From an uncultured Actinomycetes bacterium (GTDB lineage Bacteria > Actinomycetota > Actinomycetes > S36-B12): a stretch of 64,000 nucleotides of DNA. The DNA lies in contig CALFHU010000097.1 in assembly GCA_937875815.1 (NCBI GenBank), positions 1,125 to 65,124 of the forward strand, written 5' to 3'. The first letter of the stretch is position 1. The number at the start of each line of letters is the position of its first letter. Below the pieces are notes generated by a model that saw only the letters and a list, made by a program, of their open reading frames with translations, was not told where the DNA came from and did no database searches. The position numbers and the translations under genes are program-made. Of the stretch, positions 6,191-59,399 are shown piece after piece.

Positions 6191-9100
6191 GTGTCGGTGA
6201 GTGAAATCGGCTTTGAGCCAGAACCGGCGCTTGGCGGGGACCCTCAATGGTTCGACCAAGATGTCAGCTATGACTTCGATGAAGAGCCCATCAGCGAACC
6301 GGTAATAGCGCGTTCGCACTTTGTCACCACGGTTCTCGTCTCCCACAACGGAGCGACCTGGTTACCTGCGGTACTTACTCAACTCGCTCGCACCACCAGA
6401 CCCCCCGAAGTAATTGTCGGAGTCGATGCCCGATCAACAGATACATCCCTAGAAATTTTGACCCAGAGCTTGGGAGCAGATCGGGTGGTGGCCCTAGCTG
6501 AGAACCAGGGTTTCGGGGCGTGTGTTGACGCGGGATTGGGTTTGGTGCCGCGACCGGATTTCCGCGCAGACGCTCGTCCGGCTGACACAATTGAATGGAT
6601 CTGGCTGTTGCACGACGACTGCGCACCAGACTCAACCGCACTGGAGCAGCTCTTATTGGCCGCAGACCGTCACCCCAGCGTTGCCGTACTGGGCCCCAAG
6701 ATTCTCGGTTGGCATGACCGCAGGCTCCTACTGGAAGTGGGCGTGGGCATCACCTCGGACGGTCGGCGGGTAACCGGGCTTGAACGTGGCGAGCATGACC
6801 AAGGTCAACATGATGGTGAGCGCGATGTATTGGCGGTCAGTTCCGCCGGGATGCTCGTCAGGCGCGATATTTTCGATGCCCTAGGGGGCTTTGACCCGGA
6901 GCTGCCGCTTTTTCGCGATGATTTAGATTTGTGCTGGCGGGCCCACCGCATGGGTGAGCGCGTGATTATTGCTACGGGCGCACAAATGCACCACCGCGAA
7001 GCGTCCGCACACGGTCGCAGGCTTGACAATCAGAGCCGCCTGGAAAGCTCACGTCTGCTTCGTGCAGATCGGGAAGCCGCAGTTCACGTGCTACTTGCCC
7101 ATTCCGCTGGCGTAGCCGCAGTTTTGATTGGCCTGCGTTTATTTTTGGGCAGCGTGATTCGCTCGCTGGGGTATTTGTTGGGCAAAGATGCGAGTGCTGC
7201 GGGAGCCGAAATCGGTGCAGTCGTATCTGTAATCCTTCATCCGTCGCGGTTGCGACGTTCGCGCGCACTTGTTGCCGTGACGTCGACCGAACCCGCCTCA
7301 GTCGTTCGACATTTGCGACCGAGTACGTGGGAGCAGATCCGGTCTCTGGGAGAGGCCGCGGCCGGCCTTGCCACAACAAGTGGGTCAACAACTAATACGC
7401 TCAGCGCACTTGATTCGGGTCCAGTCGATGAAGACGCGTCCTACCTGGAAGAATCCTCTGCCGGCTTGTTCAAAAGGGTGCTTCGCAAGCCCAGCGTTGC
7501 AATAATTGTGCTGTTGACGCTCATTGCCGCCGCGGCAACCCGATCACTATGGCTCGGCGAAGGAGTAATCCAAGGCGGGGCGCTTTTGCCAAGTCCGTGG
7601 GGGGCATCGGATCTATGGAACTTCTACTTCCAAGGGTGGCACAATGTTGGCCCCGGCTCGGTAAGTGATTCACCGCCGTATCTTGCGGTGATAGCAGCCC
7701 TGTCAACAATCACGTTGGGCAAAGCCACCCTCGCGGTGAATTTCATGTTGTTATTGGCAATTCCGCTGGCCGGTTGGGCCGCTTACTTTGCGTCGCGGGT
7801 TCTGATCCCGAGCAAGGCGATTCGTTTCTGGGGTGCAGCAACGTACGCGCTTTTGCCAGCCATGACGGGTTCACTTGCACAGGGTCGATTGGGAACCAGC
7901 TTCGCTGCATTTATTTTGCCGTTCGCGCTACGTTCGGGGGTTCGCATGCTTACTCCCGATTCAACGAGAAGGCGCGCGGCCGGCACGGCATTGCTTTTTG
8001 CCTTGCTCCTCGCATTCGCTCCAGCGCTGTGGCTCATTTCACTGGTCTGTGCGGTTTTGGCACTAGCCTTTATCCGCCGAACCAAAGAAGCCGTGATCAA
8101 GGCGGCAATTACATTTGGCGCCTCATTTGCGGCCCTCGTTCCGTGGAGTTTCTCACTGGTACTTAATCCCGTGCAGTTTTTCTTTGAGCCGGGCTTAAAT
8201 TCCGCGACTCTCACCGACCCAGATATTTCAATGGTAGATATTTTCCTGCTTCACCCCGGCGGCCCGGGAATGTCTCCGATCGTGATCACGATCGGGATTG
8301 TTCTTGCAGCTGTGCTTGCCCTCGTGCGCACCGATCGACGTTCGGTAGCTGTTCTTTTGATCACGGCTGCGTGGGTGGGAATACTGTTTGCCCTCGTTCA
8401 AGTTGTCTTTCTCTTCACACCTGCCGGTGCAACAACACAAATGCGCACCTGGCCTGGCCCGGCAACACTGTTTATTGGGCTGATGCTGATTGCTGCAGCG
8501 GCATTGGGCGCGCAGGGATTACGTACCCGGTTTATCGGGCAAAGTTTCAGTCTTGGACAGCCAATCGCGGCGATCGCTGTTCTTGCCGCGCTCGCCGCGC
8601 CATTACTGTCACTTTTGTGGCTTATTCCGGCCGATACCAGCGTGCTGGCCCGTAATTCGCCTGCGACTGTGCCAGCCTTTGTTGCCGCGGATGCATTCGG
8701 CCCACAAGCGCCACGAACACTCATGCTCACGCAACTGCCCGCCGGAAGTATCGAATACACGTTGATTAATGGGGACGGCTTACGTCTCGGAGATGCGGAC
8801 ACGCCCCCGAGTTCGCAGGTGTGGCGCACAATCGATCCGTATGTTGCGGCGCTGGCCTCGGGGCGTGGTGGCGACGAGGTTGCCGCGTTGGGAGGTTACG
8901 GAGTCCGCTATGTGGCACTTGCCCCAGGATCGTCACAGGAAATCGTGCCAATTCTTGACGCTGAGCCCGGTTTGCGCCGGTTATCTAATTCTGACGGCGA
9001 AGTGCTGTGGCGCGTTTCTGGTGTCACTTCGCGGGCCCGCATCACCGATGGGGATATCCAGTCGCCGGTGGGCATCGCATCGCCGGAGGATCTGGGCACG

Positions 9101-24699: not shown

Positions 24700-25320
24700 C
24701 TAGCGCATTTCTATTGCGGTGAGCATCCACTGGCTGCCGATTGCTTCCATGCGTAGTGCAATAGCGTGGGAGCGGGCACTACCAACGAGCACCGCGCTGG
24801 CTTCGATGATGCCCGGTGCAACCTGCATGGCCTGCACTCCTCGGACCTTGCGCAGACGTGAGAGCCCTTTTTGGGCGCGAGTTGCTGGATGTCGGGAGAA
24901 ACTTTGACCCCGCAGGGATAGCAGCGAGAGCTGATCTGGACTCACCCACCGTTTGAGTTGGGCGCTTGGGCGTTCACCGCAAGCCACTTCAAAGACCATG
25001 CGGGCCATGTGCCCGGCCCAACTGATCGGGTGGGGCACCTCCACTAGTTCGCCTTCCTCGTTGGGGACGTGAATATGGCTTGGCATCTTCGTGGGCACTG
25101 GCTCTTGGGTCGAAGGAGCAGGGGGTGCAACGAGCTCAAGTGGCCGGTTTGCCGCCAGGCCTGGAGTGATCTGCCACAGCAGGGCCAGAGGCAACTGTTC
25201 TTTGTAGTCCACGTGATCGGGGATTCCGCCGTTAATGAGCCGCAGGCTCGGCACAGGGGTTCGCGCCAGCGTGCGGACACCAGGGGTGGATTCGCCTTGG
25301 GGGATTAAGTGGTTCGTCAT
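24700..25320 (-). CDS. Rv3235-family (DUF6459-like) protein
   Basis: The C-terminal pattern ..RPSAQLKRWVSPDQ..VRGVQAMQVAPGIIEASAVLVGSARSHAIALRMEAIGSQWMLTAIEM fits the family. Track ORF uses TTG 25359. ATG 25320 has a GAGGA SD 5 nt upstream. Confidence 0.75.
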   Translation of the reverse strand: MTNHLIPQGESTPGVRTLARTPVPSLRLINGGIPDHVDYKEQLPLALLWQITPGLAANRPLELVAPPAPSTQEPVPTKMPSHIHVPNEEGELVEVPHPISWAGHMARMVFEVACGERPSAQLKRWVSPDQLSLLSLRGQSFSRHPATRAQKGLSRLRKVRGVQAMQVAPGIIEASAVLVGSARSHAIALRMEAIGSQWMLTAIEMR

Positions 25321-25450
25321 GTCAGTCCTCACAAATTTTCGCGGTGGATGGTCATACAATTCATTTGTATACGTTTGACTCTGTTTACGGGTGTTTAGTT
25401 ACATGTGCATTATGCAGTTACACCTAGTGTTTTTGTCAAGCCCCAATCTT

Positions 25451-25539
25451 GTTCATATTTGTGTTATACCCAGTTTCGGCATACTTAAACACTTTTTGGC
25501 CAGGAACTGAGTCGGGAAAAGGGGTTTATCCACAGGGTC
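25451..25539 (+). repeat. Direct repeat copy A (pairs with 27088-27176)
   Basis: Ungapped alignment to 27088-27176 gives 79/89 identities. The core 25484-25539 versus 27121-27176 gives 54/56. Contains TTATCCACAGG at 25526-25536. Confidence 0.95.
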
Positions 25540-25735
25540 GCTCATATTTTTCGTTGTCATAAACACAATCGTGTGCGACAGAATCGTTAGCGCCAGGAAT
25601 CAGTGACGAGTGCGTTGCTTGGTGCGCCCTGCGTGCAATCGCTAACGACCGGAATGAGCCAATTCCCGGTACGATTGCAGACATCGAAGTCGGTAATGAC
25701 ATTACACCGCTACTACGCAATGGAAGGAACTGAAC

Positions 25736-25981
25736 GTGAGCGAAACCGGAGAGTCAATAATTCCGAAAAAGTCTTACCGCGAAAAATGGACACCCCGCAA
25801 TTTCCTGCTCAGCGCATTTGTCCTTGTCGTAACGGTCGCCTTTGTGTTTCAGGGAATCAGTTACATCACTGATGGTGTCGGAGCGCTGGTTCCCTACCTC
25901 ATGGTGATCGGCGGACCGGTCCTAGGAATTTTCTATATTTGGTATTTTCTTTTCTATGTCCCCATGCAAACTTCCGAATGA
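25736..25981 (+). CDS. Small two-TM membrane protein (81 aa)
   Basis: GTG start with SD GGAAGGA 7 nt upstream. Two hydrophobic helices (FLLSAFVLVVTVAFVF; VIGGPVLGIFYIWYFLFYV). No family recognised. Confidence 0.55.
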   Translation: MSETGESIIPKKSYREKWTPRNFLLSAFVLVVTVAFVFQGISYITDGVGALVPYLMVIGGPVLGIFYIWYFLFYVPMQTSE

Positions 25982-26028
25982 GAGCGTGTCATTGTTCGAA
26001 TTGAAGATTCACAAAACGCTGGCATACT

Positions 26029-26754
26029 GTGGAGATGAATTGGCATAAGGCTAGAAATTTCGTCGGTATTTTTGCGTGTGCCCTGGCCTTGGTAGTTCCC
26101 ACCGCGAATGCAGATCAGCAGCCGAAGGACCTCGCTAGCCTGTCAATCGCTCAGGGGATTTCCTCAATCCCTTCGGCAAAGCGAGTCGACGTTTACGCGA
26201 ATCAAATTCTAATTGCCCGCGACCTGAACGCCGGTGACCTCCAAACCCGCTCAATCAAGCCCGGCAGTTACCAGATAGTGGTGGTTCCAGCCGGCCTACC
26301 TCGAGTGACGTCGAACCAGTTGATTCGAATCTCGAAACTCACTCTGCAAGCCGGTGAGAACCGAACTCTCGCGCTCCACGCCACAGCAACCAATCGCCCA
26401 GCCAGCTCCGTGTTTACAAACAGAACCCGAACTGTTGGCCAGAACATGGGGCTCATGACTTTCCGGAATATCGCACAAGCACCCACCGTTGGGATTCGCT
26501 CACGCGGTGAACTTCTCATGAAACCCATAGCAAACGGTGAGACCGAGGGCGCCGGCCTTCAATCCGGTAACTACACCATTCGGATAGTCCGCGCGGGAAC
26601 ACGTAAAAAACTCATACCAAGCAGTGTCCACACGATTTCAAATAAACCCGGCCGAAATGACATGGGCAACAACCGAATCGTGTATCTCTGGGGTTCAGAA
26701 AAAGACGGGACCCTCGACCTTATGGTTCAAGACATTCTGCTGGGGCTTGACTAG
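26029..26754 (+). CDS. Secreted DUF4397-like protein
   Basis: Signal peptide (..FACALALVVPTANA/DQ). Two repeats carry the DUF4397-type pattern (VDVYANQILIARDLNAGDLQTRSIKPGSYQIVVVPAG; ..GLQSGNYTIRIVRAG). Confidence 0.6.
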   Translation: MEMNWHKARNFVGIFACALALVVPTANADQQPKDLASLSIAQGISSIPSAKRVDVYANQILIARDLNAGDLQTRSIKPGSYQIVVVPAGLPRVTSNQLIRISKLTLQAGENRTLALHATATNRPASSVFTNRTRTVGQNMGLMTFRNIAQAPTVGIRSRGELLMKPIANGETEGAGLQSGNYTIRIVRAGTRKKLIPSSVHTISNKPGRNDMGNNRIVYLWGSEKDGTLDLMVQDILLGLD

Positions 26755-27083
26755 AAGTTACGCATCGGGAACACATAGTTACTTCTATCCGTGCCGTAGC
26801 TGGAATTCCAATAGTTAAGGCTGTTGCGCACTGACAAACCGATAACGGCTCGGTTGTCATAAGCGATTTGCGTCTCTTCCTTGGACGGGACGAACCAATC
26901 ATTTTGACCACCTATAACCATGCCCTTAACTGTCCTGATTGTTCCGCCACTGCAAGATTTAGCTAGACACGTATTTTGGTAACCCATTCCGATTTCTTCA
27001 CATGGACGCATCTCGCTGACGGTGCTTGTACACAACGGCGCAGAGCCTGTGCTGGCACCATCTTTATGGCAATGGACACCCAT
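26751..27083 (-). CDS. Cys-rich hypothetical protein with weak DUF1566 (Lcl C-terminal)-like features
   Basis: ..GGQNDWFVPSKEETQIAY.. and ..YWNSSYG.. resemble the DW-x-LP-x(2)-EL and YWSS motifs. No signal peptide. Hand-counted GC is 43-52% per 60-nt line. Confidence 0.4.
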   Translation of the reverse strand: MGVHCHKDGASTGSAPLCTSTVSEMRPCEEIGMGYQNTCLAKSCSGGTIRTVKGMVIGGQNDWFVPSKEETQIAYDNRAVIGLSVRNSLNYWNSSYGTDRSNYVFPMRNF

Positions 27084-27087
27084 TCGT

Positions 27088-27176
27088 GTTCATAGTTGTG
27101 TTTCCCCCAACTTGGGCATGCTTAAACACTTTTTGGGCAGGAACTGAGTCGGGAAAAGGCGTTTATCCACAGGGTC
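27088..27176 (+). repeat. Direct repeat copy B (pairs with 25451-25539)
   Basis: See copy A. Contains TTATCCACAGG at 27163-27173. Lies directly upstream of the 27224/27332 ORF and abuts the start of the minus-strand ORF 26751..27083. Confidence 0.95.
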
Positions 27177-27331
27177 ACAAGATTTATTGGCAATCCGACC
27201 GGCCTTCAGCGCAGAATCACAAGGTGGAGATTCCCGAAGTCTGGCTGCAGGCCCAAGCAAGTGTGCAAGCACAATTGGATCAAGAGGCGCTTGCAGAAGC
27301 AGCAGATTTGGCTCAAGCCCAATGGAGTGAC

Positions 27332-27781
27332 ATGACTTTGGCCACTCGCCTGGTCGAGGCACGCGGGCAAAGCGTTGACTTGATGGTTGCTGGGTTGCGG
27401 ACATTCGGGACGCTCAAGGAGGTAAGTGCATCCGAAAAATTTGTATTATTGGAGTGTCGCGAAGGGGAGTCCCAGCGGCCAGGCGAGCAGCTAGTTCGGA
27501 CTTCGTGCATTAACTCAGCGCGTGGCCTACCGCGCGCCCTGGCGCCCGCCAGTGAAGCCCTAGGCAGGGTGCGAATCGGATTTCGAGAGGGTGGCTGGTT
27601 GCGCCGACAGTGGGGAAACCGAGTTCGGATCCGGGTGCCTGGGCTCGAGGATGCTGGGGTGATTGTCGGGCGCGTCGCTGCAGTGGGATACGACTTCATT
27701 GAAATTGACAACAACGAGGTCGGCAACCAGCGGCTAGTCGTGGCACTGGGATCGGTGGTGTCAATTGCGACAGCTGCTTAA
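27332..27781 (+). CDS. Hypothetical protein with two tandem ~45-aa repeats
   Basis: Track ORF 27026..27781 begins inside the repeat and the opposite gene. ATG 27332 (GGAG 4 nt upstream) or in-frame GTG 27224 are plausible starts. Internal duplication: GQSVDLMVAGLRTFGTL..FVLLE versus GNRVRIRVPGLEDAGVI..FIEID. Confidence 0.55.
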   Translation: MTLATRLVEARGQSVDLMVAGLRTFGTLKEVSASEKFVLLECREGESQRPGEQLVRTSCINSARGLPRALAPASEALGRVRIGFREGGWLRRQWGNRVRIRVPGLEDAGVIVGRVAAVGYDFIEIDNNEVGNQRLVVALGSVVSIATAA

Positions 27782-28005
27782 TCGGCCTCTTCGCCTTTAC
27801 CGAACGGGTGGGTCGAAACGAATTCGCGGGTCTGGGCGTACATATTTTCAATATATGCCTCGAGCGCTTGGGCCTCCACACGCCACTGGCCACGCCCACC
27901 AACTTTGATTGCAGGCAATTCGCCGGAACGCACTAATGCGTAGGTTTGGGCAGATGAGATGTTCAGCGTCTCAGCGACATCAGAAAGTGTGAGAAAACGG
28001 GCCAT
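27778..28005 (-). CDS. Excisionase-family helix-turn-helix DNA-binding protein
   Basis: MARFLTLSDVAETLNISSAQTYALVRSGELPAIKVGGRGQWRVEAQALEAYI is the classic TIGR01764-type HTH. Start refined from 28068 to ATG 28005. Confidence 0.85.
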   Translation of the reverse strand: MARFLTLSDVAETLNISSAQTYALVRSGELPAIKVGGRGQWRVEAQALEAYIENMYAQTREFVSTHPFGKGEEAD

Positions 28006-28027
28006 AGCGACATAGTGCCAAAGTTTG

Positions 28028-28062
28028 TGCGCCCGCGCAGCATCCACCCGCCTCCTGTGGAT
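28028..28062 (+). promoter_or_regulatory. Two adjacent small hairpins with C-rich loops in the divergent HTH/SAF intergenic region (operator or 6C-like RNA candidate)
   Basis: Hairpin 1: TGCG(28028-31) / loop CCCG / CGCA(28036-39). Hairpin 2: ATCCAC(28042-47) / loop CCGCCTCCT / GTGGAT(28057-62). The right arm is part of CCTGTGGATAA, the reverse complement of TTATCCACAGG. Confidence 0.3.
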
Positions 28063-28133
28063 AACCATTTCGCATATTTTGGTTTGGGGGAGATAGTGAA
28101 GTCACCGTTGCCAGGACGCGCAGCGGCTGAGAA

Positions 28134-28802: not shown

Positions 28803-30103
28803 TGGAAAATTTTGGGGAAGCTTCACGAGCACTCAACATGGTCTGGGCATTAAACGGTGTTCCTGCAGAGGCAGAATTGCTTGCACTAGCCAGCGCGGGT
28901 GGAATTGTCGTGCGAAGACGCTGCTTTGATGCATCTGAGCTGCTTGCGGTAAGCGCCGTCGTACCCGGTACCCACGTGTTGATCAGCGCGCAACTAGCAC
29001 GCATGAGCAGGGAAATCATGTCCACGTTGCAAGCCCAGGTTGCATCGGTTGCGGTGATTGCATTTAGTGACGCTGAAGAATCCCGCGCCGAAACATGGAA
29101 CGCCGACCGCATTTTTCGGGGCGATCACCCCGAATTTGATCTGGTCGCCAAACTCAAGCAAGAGCATTCGAGCTCACCGGCGTGGCCGCCGCCGCCACAA
29201 ACATCTCTGGGACAGGTCTGTGCCATTTGGGGGCCCATCGGTTCACACGGACGGACAACCTTTGCGATTGGATTAGCTGAGGCTTTAGCGGATTTAGGCG
29301 AGCGAGTACTGCTCATTGATGCTGACACGAGTGCTCCGTCGGTCGCGTTGACGTTGGGGATTGAGGAGGATGTCAGTGGGATCGTCGTAGCCACGCGATA
29401 TGCCGAACAAAATGCACTTGACTCGAGATCGCTGGCCAACTGTGCCAGGGTAATCAGCCCAAATTTTTGGGTCATGACGGGTCTGGCGAGTCCGCAGAGA
29501 TGGCCAGAAGTACGTGCCGGTTCTTTCTGCAAAATTATTGAGCGTGCACGTGAACATTTCGATCAGATCGTGATTGACGTTGGCGCGGCGCTGGACGACG
29601 TTGAGGGAGAAGACCGGATCGAGTTGGCGCCCACTTTGGTCCCGCGCCGACATCTGGTCACGCGTAGTGTTCTAGAGAATGCGGATCAGGTGTATTTGGT
29701 GACGCGAGCCGATGCTCTCGGCGCCCAGAGGTTGGCGCACACGTATAGCGATCACGGGTCGGTGTTTGCAGGGGCCCGCAAAAGCGTTGTTGTCAACAGT
29801 GTTCACAAAACTCAAGTGCGAGAAGTACAACGTCAGTTTGTAGATCTGTGTGGTGCACTGGATCCGGAACTCAACGTGGTTTTCTTACCGCAGGATTCGG
29901 ATGCGCCAGGAATGGTCAAAAATGCACGTACGTTAGGGGAGCAAAATGCCCGTGCACCGTTGGCGAAGGCAATTAGGGAGTGTGCGGATACAAGATTACG
30001 GGGACGCGCGCACGTAGACCGTGTCACCGACCTCAGCCCATTTGTAAAGTTTCTTAGCATCTTTCGCGGCCATGCGTACGCACCCGCCGGTGGCAATGGG
30101 TAA
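28802..30103 (+). CDS. ParA/MinD-superfamily Ssd/CpaE(TadZ)-like protein with a degenerate P-loop
   Basis: A ~140-aa receiver-like N-terminal domain, then ..AIWGPIGSHGRTTFAIGLAEALADLGERVLLIDAD.. (P-loop-like, with neither Walker A Lys). The start overlaps the SAF stop (ATAATG context). Confidence 0.7.
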   Translation: MENFGEASRALNMVWALNGVPAEAELLALASAGGIVVRRRCFDASELLAVSAVVPGTHVLISAQLARMSREIMSTLQAQVASVAVIAFSDAEESRAETWNADRIFRGDHPEFDLVAKLKQEHSSSPAWPPPPQTSLGQVCAIWGPIGSHGRTTFAIGLAEALADLGERVLLIDADTSAPSVALTLGIEEDVSGIVVATRYAEQNALDSRSLANCARVISPNFWVMTGLASPQRWPEVRAGSFCKIIERAREHFDQIVIDVGAALDDVEGEDRIELAPTLVPRRHLVTRSVLENADQVYLVTRADALGAQRLAHTYSDHGSVFAGARKSVVVNSVHKTQVREVQRQFVDLCGALDPELNVVFLPQDSDAPGMVKNARTLGEQNARAPLAKAIRECADTRLRGRAHVDRVTDLSPFVKFLSIFRGHAYAPAGGNG

Positions 30104-30802
30104 TCCCAATTGATCGGTTGAATGCATCATGCTGCCGTCGTAGTAGAGCGGGATGCTGTGAAATCCGATCGCCGTTTTGCCATCATTACCGTAGGCAAAT
30201 CTGGTCATATGATCAAAAGTGACTTTTGAGTTGGGGTTCCCGCTGTACTTTGACTGCGAAAAAATCTCGTACTTGCCCTTAACGGGTCGATCCCAGCGAC
30301 CGACGACAGGGAATCGGTAGACAACTTCATCAGCTTCATTCATGGCCCACACGGTCATCAGCGCCTTGTCGTAAACGATCCGTCGACCGGTGTGCTTGCC
30401 CAACGGTCGCTCGGGAATATTCTTGGCTTTACGTTCCCGCGTTGCTGGCTTCGGCTTCTTGGTTTTTGTGGGTGTCGGGCTCGGTATGGGTATCACGCTA
30501 GTCATAGGTGCTGCGCTAGGTACTGGTGCGACACTAGGAGTGGGTGCTGCGCTAGGAGTGGGTGCTGCGCTAGGAGTGGGTGCTGCGCTAGGAGTGGGTG
30601 CTGCGCTGGGCTCGGTGGCGATGTCCTGGGCCGAGACCGTCACAGCACTGGCGCCCGCATTGTCTGAACGGTCAACAATCCCCACGAGAAGTCCGCCGAT
30701 CAAGGCGATAGCCAAAGCGGAAGCAACTACTGACACGCGGCCCACGTGTGTCCAGCGGGGAAGTTTCACGGTTTGAGTATGCCACCAAAGTGCGCAAATC
30801 AT
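29996..30802 (-). CDS. L,D-transpeptidase (YkuD domain) with TM anchor and a P/T/S/A-rich repeat linker
   Basis: YkuD catalytic region ..GFHSIP..TGGCVRM... TM helix VSVVASALAIALIGGLLVGIV. Start refined from 30991 to ATG 30802. Confidence 0.85.
   Translation of the reverse strand: MICALWWHTQTVKLPRWTHVGRVSVVASALAIALIGGLLVGIVDRSDNAGASAVTVSAQDIATEPSAAPTPSAAPTPSAAPTPSAAPTPSVAPVPSAAPMTSVIPIPSPTPTKTKKPKPATRERKAKNIPERPLGKHTGRRIVYDKALMTVWAMNEADEVVYRFPVVGRWDRPVKGKYEIFSQSKYSGNPNSKVTFDHMTRFAYGNDGKTAIGFHSIPLYYDGSMMHSTDQLGLPIATGGCVRMAAKDAKKLYKWAEVGDTVYVRASP
30507..30614. repeat. 18-bp tandem repeat x6 (three central copies identical) encoding (PTPSAA)n in the L,D-transpeptidase linker
   Basis: Units start at 30507, 30525, 30543, 30561, 30579 and 30597. 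Units 3-5 are GGTGCTGCGCTAGGAGTG, identical over 54 bp. Confidence 0.95.
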
Positions 30803-30897
30803 TGCTTTGGGCAGTACGGTGTGTGCGGCGCCACCGTGGTGGGGGATCCAGATCGTGGATTCGGACAGTTTATGGGGAACTCGAAAGGAAGTGGCAC

Positions 30898-32364
30898 GTG
30901 GAGCGGTTAAGTAGCCTCGACGCTTCATTTCTCTACATTGAGAACTCGCAGACGCCAATGAATATTGGGAGCGTGTCAATTTTTCAGCCATCTGAGGGTG
31001 GATTTGAGCATGAGACCCTGGTCAAATTGATTAAGGCACGCTTGGCATTTGTGCCGCGTTACCGGCAGCGGGTCAAGGAGATTCCCTTTGGCATATTCCG
31101 GCCGGTGTGGGTCGATGACACCGCATTTGATGTGTCGTATCACGTGCGTCGGTCCGCATTACCCAAGCCGGGTAATGGCGAACAGCTCGATGAACTAGTT
31201 GCCCGCCTCATGAGCCGTCCACTTGACCGGTCCCGTCCGTTATGGGAAATGTACTTAATTGAGGGGCTCTCCGGCGGGCGATTCGCGATTGTCACTAAGA
31301 GCCATGAAGCATTGGTTGATGGGCTCGCGGCACTCGATATTTCCCAAGTGATTCTTGACAGTGAATCCCAGGCATCGGTCGGTCCTCCAGATTCTTGGCG
31401 TCCTGCACCGGAGCCATCGGCAATTGAATTGATGAGCGCATCGGTGACCGAGGTATTTGCGCACCCGACCGCAGCTGCTGAGCTGGTTGTGAGTACCGCA
31501 TCCGAAGCCTTCACAGGTACTCAAAGCGTCGTGGGTAGCGCGGTGAGCGGCGCAACGGAGGCGATCTACGATTTAGTCTCGCTTGCACGATTTCGGACCC
31601 GGTCGCCGTTGAAGGCAAAACTCGGTGCCCAAAGGCGATTCGTTTCCGTTGACGTTGATCTTGACGAACTGCGAGAGGTCCGCAAATCTGCATCTGCGTT
31701 GACTGCCCAAAGCATCAGTGTCAACGACATTATTTTGACCGTGCTCACTGGGGCATTACGAAGTTGGCTGATTCGGCGCGATGGCCTACCAAGTGGCCAG
31801 GATCGTTTCAATGCGCTGGTGCCGGTTTCCCTGGATTCAAAAGTTGAAGAGCCGACGCTGGGCGGCTCGGTTAATGCTTATGTCATCGAGTTGCCGGTGG
31901 CACAATTCGAGCCGATTGATCGGTTGATGCGCGTGGTTGAACAAATGTCTGACCTGGATCCAATGGGTGAATTTCTCGGGGCGCGAGCGATCATTGACAT
32001 TGCCGGCTTCGGTCCAGCATCGGTACACGCTCTCGGTGCTCGCATGGCATCGACGCTCACGCGTCGCGCCTACGACGTCACAATCACCAACGTGCCTGGC
32101 CCTCAGCATGCCCTTTATGCAGCGGGGTCCCAAATGCTCGCTTCCTATCCGTGTGTGCCGTTGGTACCGGGTCAGGCGCTGAGCATTGGCCTGACGAGTT
32201 ACCACGGAAGTCTGTGTATTGGTCTAATGGCAGATCGTGATGCACTGGAAGATCTTGATGTGATTGCCGCGAGCATCCGTGACTCAATTGTCGGGCTACG
32301 AGCCTCGATTGCACAGCGACGGAGCTCGCCTGGTGGGAATTACTTACGGGTGGTCGCCTCCTAA
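30898..32364 (+). CDS. Wax ester synthase/diacylglycerol acyltransferase (WS/DGAT, Tgs-like) with a variant active-site motif
   Basis: N-terminal ..LSSLDASFLYIENSQTPMNIG.. and C-terminal ..TNVPGP.. are family hallmarks. The start is GTG 30898 (AAGGAAG upstream); the track ORF extension from 30748 is rejected. The motif reads SHEALVDG instead of HHxxxDG. Confidence 0.9.
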   Translation: MERLSSLDASFLYIENSQTPMNIGSVSIFQPSEGGFEHETLVKLIKARLAFVPRYRQRVKEIPFGIFRPVWVDDTAFDVSYHVRRSALPKPGNGEQLDELVARLMSRPLDRSRPLWEMYLIEGLSGGRFAIVTKSHEALVDGLAALDISQVILDSESQASVGPPDSWRPAPEPSAIELMSASVTEVFAHPTAAAELVVSTASEAFTGTQSVVGSAVSGATEAIYDLVSLARFRTRSPLKAKLGAQRRFVSVDVDLDELREVRKSASALTAQSISVNDIILTVLTGALRSWLIRRDGLPSGQDRFNALVPVSLDSKVEEPTLGGSVNAYVIELPVAQFEPIDRLMRVVEQMSDLDPMGEFLGARAIIDIAGFGPASVHALGARMASTLTRRAYDVTITNVPGPQHALYAAGSQMLASYPCVPLVPGQALSIGLTSYHGSLCIGLMADRDALEDLDVIAASIRDSIVGLRASIAQRRSSPGGNYLRVVAS

Positions 32365-59335: not shown

Positions 59336-59399
59336 TTATGCACAGGCTGCCCACAGTTTCTTGATCCGTTGTGCCGAAATTAGACGAGTTATCCACAGC
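59336..59399 (+). promoter_or_regulatory. Pair of TTATNCACA boxes (TTATGCACAGG, TTATCCACAGC) upstream of the small-TM/PDZ-Lon genes
   Basis: 59336-59346 and 59389-59399, same orientation, 53 bp apart, plus the related GCCCACAGT at 59349-59357. Confidence 0.4.

What the first reader, a model, noticed from the sequence alone, without database searches (positions are those of the whole stretch)
25442..27176. A ~1.65-kb cassette bracketed by a ~90-bp imperfect direct repeat that duplicates a regulatory segment
Segments 25451-25539 and 27088-27176 align without gaps at 79/89 positions, and the core 25484-25539 versus 27121-27176 gives 54/56. Each copy lies 150-200 nt upstream of a plus-strand gene start (25736, and 27224/27332). 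Between the copies are an 81-aa two-TM protein, a signal-peptide DUF4397-like protein and an oppositely oriented Cys-rich DUF1566-like ORF. Hand counts of 60-nt lines give 43-52% GC for the DUF1566-like ORF and parts of the small membrane gene, against about 55-58% for the DUF4397 gene and flanking core genes, so composition is heterogeneous. In the M. tuberculosis-type synteny (secA, Rv3235, tgs3) nothing equivalent is present. No integrase or transposase is visible. One possibility is cassette capture or duplication by recombination through a promoter-operator segment. Another is two transcription units placed under one duplicated control element.
Basis: seen in the sequence. Interest (0 to 1): 0.6.

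Follow-up and report, generated by a model that had tools for sequence, protein, structure and literature searches.

The report
Duplicated promoter flanking an inserted gene patchwork
In one lineage of freshwater actinobacteria, a 1.5-kb patchwork of copied chromosomal gene pieces was inserted just upstream of a conserved gene, and that gene's promoter region is now present on both sides of the insert, probably so that the two captured genes and the original gene are each still transcribed; it is a clear example of a known kind of genome tinkering, not a new type of element.

Summary
The repeat is real. It is not dispersed, and more than 8 independent assemblies show the same layout.

Twelve more distant Ca. 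Nanopelagicales relatives have an empty site: secA, DUF6459, about 200-250 nt, then p185. They carry one copy of the segment. It ends in a conserved TTATCCACAGG placed 58-60 nt upstream of the p185 start.

The 1,539-nt insert is not a mobile cassette. Positions 25624-26754 are an 84%-identical copy of another locus: a truncated acyl-CoA synthetase 3' end, a small membrane gene and a DUF4397 gene. The Cys-rich ORF is a 5'-truncated Lcl_C (DUF1566) fragment. The two intact genes are under purifying selection (omega 0.08-0.2).

Copy 1 is followed by TTGTCA-N19-CAGAAT, which mirrors the p185 core promoter TTGGCA-N19-CAGAAT next to copy 2. The most likely reading is that the whole p185 promoter was duplicated and now serves both the captured genes and p185.

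How the duplication arose is unresolved, and transcription was not tested. Two relatives join other DNA to the same repeat edge, which no model explains. This is a new member of a known kind (promoter propagation with ectopic segmental duplication).

The parts
25442..25539 (+). Repeat copy 1 (c1). It keeps the ancestral LEFT flank (TTTTGTCAAGC) and lies in the divergent region between the DUF6459 gene and the inserted genes.
27079..27176 (+). Repeat copy 2 (c2). It keeps the ancestral RIGHT flank (ACAAGATTTATTGGCAAT) and lies directly upstream of p185.
25526..25536 (+). TTATCCACAGG element inside copy 1.
27163..27173 (+). TTATCCACAGG element inside copy 2. It sits 58-60 nt upstream of the p185 start codon in the window and in the relatives measured.
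28054..28064 (-). Third TTATCCACAGG, 58 nt upstream of the true start (28005) of the convergent HTH_17 gene. It is present in all relatives examined.
25554..25584 (+). Core-promoter-like pair next to copy 1: TTGTCA (25554-25559), 19-nt spacer, CAGAAT (25579-25584). Inferred promoter of tm81-DUF4397.
   Evidence: All 12 hexamer bases are conserved in window, L028, L001 and L023, while the spacer differs at 7/19 between window and L023. The pair occurs only here and at 27187 in the 64-kb window, and in 8/50,000 shuffles.
27187..27217 (+). p185 core promoter (inferred): TTGGCA (27187-27192), 19-nt spacer, CAGAAT (27212-27217), then 6 nt to GTG 27224, which implies a leaderless mRNA.
   Evidence: The same architecture was matched in 13 of the 15 lineages scanned; see also the alignment.
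25540..27078 (.). Lineage-specific insert, 1,539 nt. It is absent from 12 relatives.
25624..25735 (+). Truncated 3' end of an acyl/acetyl-CoA synthetase gene (pseudogene fragment). It reads ...LRAIANDRNEPIPGTIADIEVGNDITPLLRNGRN*.
   Evidence: 84% nt identity to L029/L030/L031, with a matching C-terminal peptide. omega is about 1-2.7.
25736..25981 (+). tm81, an 81-aa small membrane protein. It is a paralogue of the 83-aa gene that follows the synthetase gene at the other locus. The original ATG is mutated to CTG, and the ORF now starts at GTG.
   Evidence: omega 0.08-0.12
26029..26754 (+). Secreted DUF4397 protein. The copied paralogous segment ends exactly at its stop codon.
   Evidence: (omega 0.16-0.2)
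26751..27083 (-). Cys-rich ORF: a 5'-truncated, stand-alone Lcl_C (formerly DUF1566)-like fragment. Its start codon lies inside copy 2. It is frameshifted in L023.
27224..27781 (+). p185, a conserved hypothetical protein that is the native gene downstream of the repeat. It has no Pfam family.
24700..25320 (-). DUF6459 (Rv3235-like) gene, the native divergent neighbour. A promoter-like TTGACA (25439-25434), 19-nt spacer, CATAAT (25414-25409) on the minus strand ends 2 nt outside copy 1.
   Evidence: hexamers read directly from the sequence
27778..28005 (-). HTH_17 (excisionase-family) DNA-binding protein. It is present in all empty-site relatives, so it is not part of the insert.

Best explanation
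The two 98-nt copies are a duplicated piece of the native promoter region of p185.

Ancestral state. This state is still seen in 12 Ca. Nanopelagicales relatives. There, the DUF6459 gene (minus strand) and p185 (plus strand) are separated by about 200-250 nt holding one copy of the segment. The segment ends in a conserved TTATCCACAGG element. A -35-like TTGGCA, an 18-19-nt spacer and a -10-like CAnAcT follow, then 6 nt to the start codon.

The insertion. In the common ancestor of the window's species group, 1.5 kb of patchwork chromosomal DNA came to lie between two copies of this promoter region. The patchwork has three recognisable parts:
- a 1,131-nt copy of the end of an acyl-CoA synthetase operon (truncated synthetase 3' end, small membrane gene, DUF4397 gene);
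- a 5'-truncated Lcl_C gene fragment in the opposite orientation;
- a short stretch whose first 45 nt look like a diverged copy of the p185 core promoter.

How it works now (inferred). Copy 1 plus TTGTCA-N19-CAGAAT (25554-25584) transcribes the otherwise promoterless tm81-DUF4397 pair through a 5' UTR of about 145 nt. Copy 2 plus TTGGCA-N19-CAGAAT keeps p185 under its original control. Both units, and the neighbouring HTH_17 gene, then share whatever factor reads TTATCCACAGG.

The high-identity core. The 54/56 core reflects constraint on this element. A short gene-conversion tract from copy 1 to copy 2 in the window's lineage probably adds to it.

Shown versus inferred. Shown: the empty site, the origin of the insert, the purifying selection and the conserved promoter architecture. 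Inferred: promoter activity, and the molecular event that made the duplication. That event could be an ectopic insertion with target duplication, or a tandem duplication trimmed by deletions.
For: - Empty site. All 11 genome-collection loci and L026 have secA, DUF6459, p185, HTH with none of the three insert ORFs. Their intergenic DNA is homologous to the repeat. The ancestral left flank is kept by copy 1 and the right flank by copy 2.
- Not dispersed. There are two copies per contig and only two contigs in the JGI metagenome scan, two in the window and none in viral contigs.
- Origin of the insert. Window 25624-26754 is 83.6-84.4% identical to L029/L030/L031 (synthetase, 83-aa gene, DUF4397, Zn-ADH). 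The synthetase is full length there and truncated here, and both junctions are sharp. Cassette copies and synthetase-locus copies form two clades, 94-98% and 96-99% identical within and about 84% between.
- Native composition. The paralogue has the same GC. Tetranucleotide correlation with these Nanopelagicales loci is 0.83-0.90, against 0.55-0.64 for unrelated loci.
- The captured genes are functional. omega is 0.08-0.12 for tm81 and 0.16-0.2 for DUF4397, against about 1-2.7 for the synthetase fragment.
- Regulatory nature of the repeat. TTATCCACAGG lies 58-60 nt upstream of the start codons of both p185 and HTH_17 in the lineages measured. A common element/-35/-10/N6/start layout was matched for p185 in 13 of the 15 lineages scanned.
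- Duplicated core promoter. TTGGCA (at most 1 mismatch in total)-N19-CAGAAT occurs only at 25554 and 27187 in the whole window, and in 8/50,000 shuffles. Its hexamers are invariant in four cassette lineages, while the spacer differs at 7/19.
- Conversion. In the right-hand 56 nt, window and L028 copy 2 differ from copy 1 at 0-2 sites but from their orthologue, L023 copy 2, at 9. In the left 42 nt the copies group by position.
Against: - No transcription data exist. A standard sigma-70 scan finds nothing in the region, because the proposed spacers are 19 nt and the hexamers are weak.
- The p185 core promoter lies outside the 98-nt block. The stretch between the block and the hexamers next to copy 1 is not alignable with the p185 side: the right-flank test gives p=0.055 and the spacers match at only 4/19 by my hand count. 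A duplicated core promoter therefore rests on hexamers plus spacing. That pattern was noticed after the fact.
- Copy 1 is 196 nt from the tm81 start, unlike the fixed 47-nt arrangement at p185.
- The conversion inference rests mainly on two adjacent polarisable sites. Most of the other differences are changes specific to L023 copy 2.
- L001 and L024 join unrelated DNA to the same '~12-22 nt + repeat' unit. A single insertion event does not explain this.
- It is unproven that the synthetase locus sits in the same genome as the cassette. There is only co-occurrence in one sample, plus composition.
Confidence: 0.7

Rival explanations
1. The repeats are attL/attR of a decayed site-specific integrative element, or mark an att-like hot spot. 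A circular element carrying a copy of the promoter segment recombined with the chromosomal segment. The recombinase gene was later lost or acts in trans.
For: - Imperfect direct repeats bracket lineage-specific DNA, and one copy restores the native upstream region of the target gene.
- Three different DNAs abut the same short piece (about 12-22 nt) plus repeat: the Lcl_C fragment in the window, unrelated DNA with an MMPL-like gene in L001, and unrelated DNA with an IS30-like transposase end in L024.
- An excisionase-family HTH gene is nearby.
Against: - No integrase or transposase is present in the insert or its immediate neighbours, and there is no tRNA.
- The HTH_17 gene is present in every empty-site relative, so it is not cargo.
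- The cargo is a truncated copy of a native chromosomal operon plus a truncated gene fragment.
- Both copies share derived states specific to this lineage. Copy 1 is ancestral-like over most of its length, not a host/element mosaic.
- Every relative at 94% identity or more that spans the site keeps the insert, so there is no sign of excision.
- There are no matches in viral contigs.
Confidence: 0.13
2. The repeat is a target-site duplication of a transposable element (an IS, MITE or similar) that carried the genes in.
For: - A direct duplication of the target flanks the insert.
- An IS30-like fragment lies near the site in one relative.
Against: - 98 nt (or about 140 nt) is far longer than the 2-14 bp typical of transposition (my own knowledge).
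- The terminal inverted repeat is not significant (p=0.09).
- There is no transposase.
- The insert occurs once per contig, and its content is a chromosomal paralogue.
Confidence: 0.03
3. The repeat encodes a structured RNA, such as a riboswitch, leader or small RNA, that was duplicated for its RNA function.
For: It is a conserved non-coding block upstream of genes.
Against: - There is no Rfam match at E<=1 in 20-33 kb.
- RNAalifold finds no consensus pairs in 16 sequences.
- Folding z-scores range from -0.73 to +1.18.
- The central part is deleted in three relatives.
Confidence: 0.03
4. The repeat is a dispersed intergenic repeat, a chance match or an assembly artefact.
For: None after testing. 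Some short-read contigs do break inside the insert.
Against: - Zero matches are expected by chance.
- Relatives carry a single copy, and the repeat was found nowhere else.
- The layout is identical in more than 8 independent assemblies.
Confidence: 0.01

Closest known systems
Putative mobile promoters / promoter propagation (Matus-Garcia, Nijveen and van Passel 2012, PMC3488235)
   Same: A 50-100-nt upstream region, at least 80% identical, stands in front of non-homologous genes in one genome. It is proposed to rewire transcription of newly placed or silent genes.
   Different: Here the source of the promoter is identified: the native p185 upstream region, which is single-copy in 12 relatives. 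The two copies directly flank the inserted genes, and the recipient genes are a traceable paralogous copy.
attL/attR direct repeats of integrative genomic islands
   Same: Imperfect direct repeats bracket lineage-specific DNA. The target's functional sequence is regenerated next to the target gene.
   Different: There is no recombinase, no tRNA target and no evidence of excision. The cargo is made of truncated native chromosomal pieces.
Tandem duplication followed by deletion ('remodelling'), and ectopic templated insertions by template switching or break repair (general knowledge; complex insertions in human genomes are discussed in PMC5120786, which appeared only in the search list and was not read)
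   Same: The insert is a patchwork of truncated native genes with sharp junctions, flanked by a duplication of the target site, with no mobile-element genes.
   Different: Chromosomal order and microhomology could not be examined. No closed genome was available, and the parents of two of the junctions are unknown.
DnaA box (TTATCCACA; actinobacterial TTGTCCACA)
   Same: The conserved element contains a perfect 9/9 match. The only variant seen (L026) is TTGTCCACA.
   Different: These are single isolated boxes with two extra conserved G residues, at a fixed distance upstream of two promoters, not an origin-type cluster. Binding was not tested, and the local HTH_17 protein is an equally good candidate reader.

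Membership tests
Duplicated target flanking an insertion | The segment is single-copy at the homologous site in relatives that lack the insert. | tested here: met
   12 empty-site relatives each carry one homologous segment.
Duplicated target flanking an insertion | The outer flanks of the two copies correspond to the left and right flanks of the single ancestral copy. | tested here: met
   Copy 1 keeps TTTTGTCAAG on its left, and copy 2 keeps ...AAGATTTATTGGCAA on its right.
Putative mobile promoter (PMC3488235) | A 50-100-nt intergenic upstream sequence, at least 80% identical, stands in front of non-homologous coding sequences in the same genome. | tested here: met
   98 nt at 88% identity, upstream of tm81 and p185, which are unrelated.
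Putative mobile promoter (PMC3488235) | The sequence has promoter activity. | not testable with these tools
   Only conserved -35/-10-like hexamers and spacing are available. The standard scan is negative.
Integrative element att sites | A tyrosine or serine recombinase is encoded in or next to the insert. | tested here: not met
   Pfam and NCBIfam searches of the insert ORFs and neighbouring genes give no recombinase. PHROGs and PADLOC give nothing relevant.
Integrative element att sites | Close relatives or conspecific strains show precise empty sites (excision or polymorphism). | tested here: not met
   Every contig at 94% identity or more that spans the site carries the insert. Empty sites appear only at 73% p185 identity or lower.
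Integrative element att sites | Different cargo is joined to the same att-proximal sequence. | tested here: inconclusive
   L001 and L024 join unrelated DNA to the same 12-22 nt plus repeat. Each contig ends soon afterwards.
IS / MITE / transposon | Terminal inverted repeats, a short target duplication and multiple copies. | tested here: not met
   Terminal inverted repeat p=0.09. The duplication is 98 nt. There is one insert per contig.
Rfam structured RNA | A covariance-model match or conserved base pairs. | tested here: not met
Pfam DUF4397 (PF14344) | A score above the gathering threshold. | tested here: met
   47.6 bits against a cut-off of 30.6, E=2.9e-12.
Pfam Lcl_C / DUF1566 (PF07603) for the Cys-rich ORF | A direct profile match. 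| tested here: not met
   No hit at E<=10. Homologs P0063, P0068 and P0077 match at 8.6e-35 to 2.4e-43. The ORF lacks about the first 45 residues of the domain. It is a divergent truncated relative, not a clean member.
DnaA box | The 9-mer TT(A/G)TCCACA. | tested here: met
   Four perfect TTATCCACA in the window against 0.24 expected. The 11-mer is present upstream of p185 and HTH_17 in the relatives.
DnaA box | Bound by DnaA, or part of an origin or DnaA regulon. | not testable with these tools
   No binding or expression data are available.

The most novel reading that the evidence does not exclude
The left edge of the repeat, together with the adjoining 12-22 nt, is a recurrent recombination hot spot (an att-like landing pad) in this clade. 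Different DNA segments have been joined there in different lineages: the synthetase-operon copy plus Lcl_C fragment in the window, an MMPL-containing segment in L001, and an IS30-associated segment in L024. The process would duplicate about 100-140 bp of promoter and need no recombinase encoded in cis.
Probability: 0.12. Interest if true: 0.65.

Novelty: new member of a known kind. Interest (0 to 1): 0.35.

Why it matters
This is an unusually complete natural example of how a promoterless gene copy becomes established. The donor locus, the empty site, the duplicated promoter and the selective state of each piece can all be read from sequence.

It occurs in an order known for streamlined genomes with few paralogues and pseudogenes (PMC12817590).

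The work also uncovers a conserved regulatory element, TTATCCACAGG, at a fixed distance upstream of two apparently leaderless genes next to secA. This gives a testable small regulon of p185 and HTH_17, with tm81-DUF4397 added in this lineage.

None of this changes current concepts. Its value is as a worked case and as annotation guidance: the p185 and HTH_17 start sites, and the pseudogene fragments.

Tried and rejected
- Leftward extension of the repeat with a 4-nt indel: not significant (p=0.83).
- The 84-nt stretch 25540-25623 as a third degenerate copy of the repeat: not significant (p=0.24 and 0.56).
- Terminal inverted repeats (TTGYCATAAA) at the insert ends: p=0.09.
- Structured RNA: no Rfam hit, no consensus pairs, ordinary folding energies.
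- Standard sigma-70 scan: 0 sites, because the candidate spacers are 19 nt.
- Dispersed repeat: rejected by the window, JGI metagenome and viral scans.
- Foreign origin inferred from GC: rejected. The paralogous locus has the same gene-specific GC, and tetranucleotide usage fits the clade.
- Campbell-type integration of a diverged copy. This predicts a mosaic, with copy 1's right half and copy 2's left half looking foreign. Polarising with L024 and L026 shows copy 1 ancestral-like in both halves except at two sites, so it is not favoured.
- SigB/SigF-, ECF- or sigma-54-type promoter readings of the conserved block: the spacings do not fit (inspection only).
- A full-length parent of the Lcl_C fragment: the best relatives are only 51-52% identical at the protein level and about 66% at the nucleotide level.
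- Paralogues of the insert genes within the 64-kb window: none.
- Function of p185 from structure: the AlphaFold model (pLDDT 74) shows a helix plus two small Sm/SH3-like barrels, with no PDB match at E<=0.001.
- PHROGs and PADLOC on the insert proteins: nothing informative.
- More distant DUF4397 homologs (55-57% identical) sit in unrelated contexts and do not help with the origin.
Full report
**1. The observation**

The window holds one strong direct repeat in this region: 25442-25539 and 27079-27176, 98 nt, ungapped, 86/98 identical, 1,637 nt apart. The 39-nt core occurs only twice in 64 kb, against none in 100 shuffles. A gapped local alignment stops at exactly these edges, and the outer flanks are not significantly similar.

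The genes are as described:
- secA (+);
- a DUF6459/Rv3235-like gene (-);
- an 81-aa membrane ORF (+);
- a DUF4397 protein (+);
- an opposite-strand Cys-rich ORF;
- a 185-aa conserved hypothetical, here called p185 (+);
- an HTH_17 gene (-);
- SAF/RcpC-like and Ssd/CpaE-like genes, an L,D-transpeptidase and a WS/DGAT.

There is no tRNA and no Rfam match.

**2. Where the sequence comes from, and whether the layout is real**

Exact-protein look-ups and a scan of species-representative genomes place the window in uncultured Ca. Nanopelagicales from environmental metagenomes. Contigs from many different samples are 96-99.9% identical and collinear across both copies and the insert: L028, and L040-L045 at 99.5-99.9%. 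The structure is therefore not an assembly artefact.

A pattern scan of JGI metagenome contigs with the repeat core found only two contigs, each with exactly two copies about 1.6-1.7 kb apart. Viral contigs gave nothing. The repeat is not dispersed.

**3. The empty site**

p185 is a real, conserved protein family: 39 homologs at 57-98% identity, all starting V/MEIPEVW at the position of GTG 27224.

All 11 loci from the genome collection (58-67% p185 identity) and L026 (73%) share one order: secA, DUF6459, about 200-250 nt, p185, HTH_17, SAF, Ssd, L,D-transpeptidase, WS/DGAT. None has any of the three insert ORFs.

Their intergenic DNA is homologous to the window's. It reads...GCATTATGTGGGTA...CTTTTGTCAAG | CCCAATTTTGCTTAC..GTTATGCCCA..TTTCAAACAC..(variable)..TTTATCCACAGGCC | .CGAAATCAATTGGCAAA...GTG.

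In the window, copy 1 has the ancestral left flank and copy 2 the ancestral right flank. The 98-nt segment is therefore a single-copy native sequence that now stands on both sides of a 1,539-nt lineage-specific insert (25540-27078).

Relatives at 86% p185 identity (L022, L023) already carry the insert and both copies.

**4. What the insert is made of**

The closest non-orthologous DUF4397 proteins (83-85% identical) lie at another locus: a 627-aa AMP-binding acyl/acetyl-CoA synthetase, an 83-aa membrane protein, DUF4397 and a Zn-dependent alcohol dehydrogenase.

Window 25624-26754 is 83.6-84.4% identical at the nucleotide level to that locus. The match runs from about 110 nt before the synthetase stop codon to exactly the DUF4397 stop codon. 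The window reads ...LRAIANDRNEPIPGTIADIEVGNDITPLLRNGRN*, against ...MRAIADGRDEPIPSTIEDIKVLNDITPLLREERQ* for the intact enzyme. It therefore holds a truncated 3' fragment, which fixes the direction of copying.

Evidence on timing and donor:
- Cassette copies (94-98% identical to each other) and synthetase-locus copies (96-99%) form two groups about 84% apart. This fits one copying event older than the split between the window and L023 (dS 0.53-0.64 against 0.13-0.16).
- Gene-specific GC is the same at both loci (tm81 47.6 vs 46.8%; DUF4397 53.7 vs 50.8%).
- The donor contig's tetranucleotide usage fits this clade.
- The compositional dip is therefore not evidence of foreign DNA.
- Whether donor and cassette share one genome is not proven. 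L023 and L030 come from the same sample.

The Cys-rich ORF has only one close cluster in a word-based search. An exhaustive search finds 518 relatives, many with several copies of the domain, and these hit Pfam Lcl_C (formerly DUF1566) strongly. The ORF itself gives no Pfam hit.

Its nearest full-length relatives (51-52% identical) begin the domain about 45 residues earlier. The ORF is thus a 5'-truncated fragment whose broken end abuts copy 2. It is frameshifted in L023. It shows weak constraint on few substitutions (omega 0.2-0.35).

By contrast, tm81 (omega 0.08-0.12) and DUF4397 (0.16-0.2) are under clear purifying selection, both within the cassette clade and against the paralogue. The synthetase fragment evolves neutrally (omega about 1-2.7). 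The two intact genes are therefore expressed and useful. At the donor locus, however, the 83-aa gene start overlaps the synthetase stop codon, so the copied pair most likely arrived without a promoter of its own.

**5. What the repeat does**

The repeat ends in TTATCCACAGG. This 11-mer occurs three times in the window: in copy 1, in copy 2, and on the minus strand at 28064-28054. Every relative examined has two instances. One is 58-60 nt upstream of the p185 start. The other is 58 nt upstream of the true HTH_17 start. In 10 of the 13 empty-site and intermediate relatives, the annotated 21-codon N-terminal extension of the HTH ORF is interrupted by stop codons.

Downstream of the element, both genes share one layout:
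- p185: 10-17 nt, a -35-like hexamer (TTGGCA), an 18-19-nt spacer, a -10-like hexamer (CAnAcT; CAGAAT in the window), then 6 nt to the start codon. The scan matched this in 13 of 15 lineages.
- HTH_17: TTGCTG, a 20-nt spacer, CACTAT, then 6 nt to the ATG.

This layout implies leaderless mRNAs, which are common in Actinobacteria (my own knowledge).

The p185 core hexamers (27187-27192 and 27212-27217) lie outside the 98-nt block. Copy 1, however, is followed by TTGTCA (25554-25559), a 19-nt spacer and CAGAAT (25579-25584).
- A pair within one mismatch of TTGGCA-N19-CAGAAT occurs only at these two places in the whole 64 kb, on either strand, and in 8 of 50,000 shuffles of the 84-nt stretch.
- Its 12 hexamer bases are invariant in window, L028, L001 and L023, while the spacer differs at 7 of 19 positions between window and L023.

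I conclude that the originally duplicated unit was probably the whole p185 promoter, about 140 nt. The sharply bounded 98-nt block would then be its best-preserved or re-homogenised part. The copy next to the insert most likely drives tm81-DUF4397. This is inference, and the hexamer match was noticed after the fact.

No structured RNA is indicated.

**6. Why the core is 54/56**

In the left 42 nt, copies group by position: copy 1 sequences differ from each other at 0-2 sites, copy 2 sequences at 2-5, and copy 1 from copy 2 at 5-10.

In the right 56 nt, copy 2 of window and L028 differs from any copy 1 at 0-2 sites, but from its orthologue in L023 at 9. At two adjacent sites, L023 copy 2, L024 and L026 share TT, while copy 1 and the window's copy 2 share GA. 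That pattern fits a short conversion tract from copy 1 to copy 2 in the window's lineage. Most remaining differences are specific to L023 copy 2, so conversion is suggested rather than proven.

In L023 the two copies are 83/98 identical by my hand count from the sequences printed. That is far better than the roughly 60% I would expect for unconstrained DNA of this age, which argues that both copies are constrained.

**7. How the duplication arose**

Three routes fit the end product.

(a) One ectopic insertion of patchwork DNA with duplication of the target. This could come from fill-in of a staggered break, or from replicative template switching that re-enters upstream of where it left.

(b) A large tandem duplication starting at the left edge of the repeat, then trimmed by deletions that left the synthetase fragment, the two selected genes and the Lcl_C fragment. 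This predicts a specific chromosomal order and orientation for the donor loci.

(c) Integration at an att-like site.

I cannot separate (a) from (b) without a closed genome. Several results count against (c):
- there is no recombinase and no tRNA;
- the cargo is native and truncated;
- there is no sign of excision in any close relative;
- the host/element mosaic that (c) predicts is absent.

**8. What remains unexplained**

L001 is a 95.8%-identical contig whose split genes suggest long-read errors. It is collinear with the window from 38113 down to 25442 and then diverges. Its copy 1 is preceded by 22 nt (19/22) of the Lcl_C 5' end and then by unrelated DNA. That DNA holds four xTTGTCAnnxGCAC motifs, a small GWYPDP ORF and an MMPL-like gene.

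L024 and L025 (81% p185 identity) show a repeat copy lacking its first 9 nt. It is preceded by 12-21 nt of the same piece, then by unrelated DNA and the end of an IS30-like transposase.

Three different DNAs joined at nearly the same point hint at a recombination-prone edge. This is the basis of the 'novel case'. The data are too thin to go further.

**9. Comparison with what is known**

The case fits 'promoter propagation' as defined by Matus-Garcia et al.: 50-100-nt upstream regions, at least 80% identical, in front of unrelated genes (PMC3488235). It combines this with an ectopic segmental duplication.

It resembles island att sites and transposon target duplications only in having flanking direct repeats, and it fails their defining tests.

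The conserved element equals the DnaA-box consensus, with the actinobacterial variant in L026. Whether DnaA, the adjacent HTH_17 protein or something else reads it is unknown.

**Verdict**

This is a well-documented new member of a known kind, of moderate interest.

Noticed in passing
window 27163-27173 (+), 28054-28064 (-), 25526-25536 (+); L011-L021, L026, L022, L024: TTATCCACAGG is a perfect DnaA-box 9-mer plus GG. It sits 58-60 nt upstream of the start codons of both p185 and the convergent HTH_17 gene in the lineages measured, which suggests a small shared regulon. L026 has TTGTCCACAGG at p185. The pattern scan also picks up the -35/-10/N6/start layout for HTH_17 in part of the relatives.
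   Followed up: partly
window 28006-28068 (-): The first 21 codons of the HTH_17 ORF (MVIHRRR...) are probably not coding. The same frame has stop codons in 10 of 13 relatives, and the conserved start is the ATG at 28005 (M[A/S/P]RFLTL).
   Followed up: yes
window 59389-59397 (+): A fourth perfect TTATCCACA (followed by GC, not GG) lies in an intergenic stretch. It is not at the 58-60-nt distance from an obvious gene start.
   Followed up: partly
window 27224-27781 (+): The p185 family was found only in Nanopelagicales-type MAGs and metagenomes and has no Pfam family. The AlphaFold model (pLDDT 74, pTM 0.65) shows a long N-terminal helix plus two small Sm/SH3-like barrels. It has no PDB match at E<=0.001.
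   Followed up: partly
L001 12627-14916: Beyond its copy 1, this 95.8%-identical contig carries unrelated DNA: four xTTGTCAnnxGCAC motifs, a small GWYPDP-containing ORF and an MMPL-like gene. The DUF6459 and secA genes are not there. This is either a different strain-level arrangement or an additional inserted segment.
   Followed up: partly
L024/L025 1-870: The C-terminal end of an IS30-like transposase (...LKTIQRSLNSLPRKTLGYRTPEEKLTELIALSA*) and about 500 nt of unmatched DNA lie upstream of the single visible repeat copy in the 81%-identity relative.
   Followed up: partly
L029 3709-3960, L031 3935-4186: At the donor locus the 83-aa membrane gene starts with an ATG that overlaps the synthetase stop codon, which suggests translational coupling. 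In the window copy this ATG has become CTG, and the ORF starts at the next GTG.
   Followed up: yes
window 25409-25439 (-): A minus-strand TTGACA-N19-CATAAT upstream of the DUF6459 gene ends 2 nt outside copy 1. The 19-nt spacer recurs in all the candidate promoters of this region.
   Followed up: no
L046-L049 (contig ends at window-equivalent 25776-26146): Several short-read contigs end inside tm81 or DUF4397. This is probably because of the 84%-identical paralogue or strain variation.
   Followed up: no
L022 about 6775-7675: The 347-kb JGI contig has a run of N inside the cassette, flanked by a fragment resembling the C-terminus of a DUF418/YeiB-like membrane protein. It may be a scaffolding mis-join or another variant of the insert.
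   Followed up: no
window 29996-30991 (-) and 30748-32364 (+): The longest ORFs of the L,D-transpeptidase and the WS/DGAT overlap by about 240 nt at their 5' ends. The true starts are probably internal. The transpeptidase N-terminus contains PSAAPT repeats.
   Followed up: no
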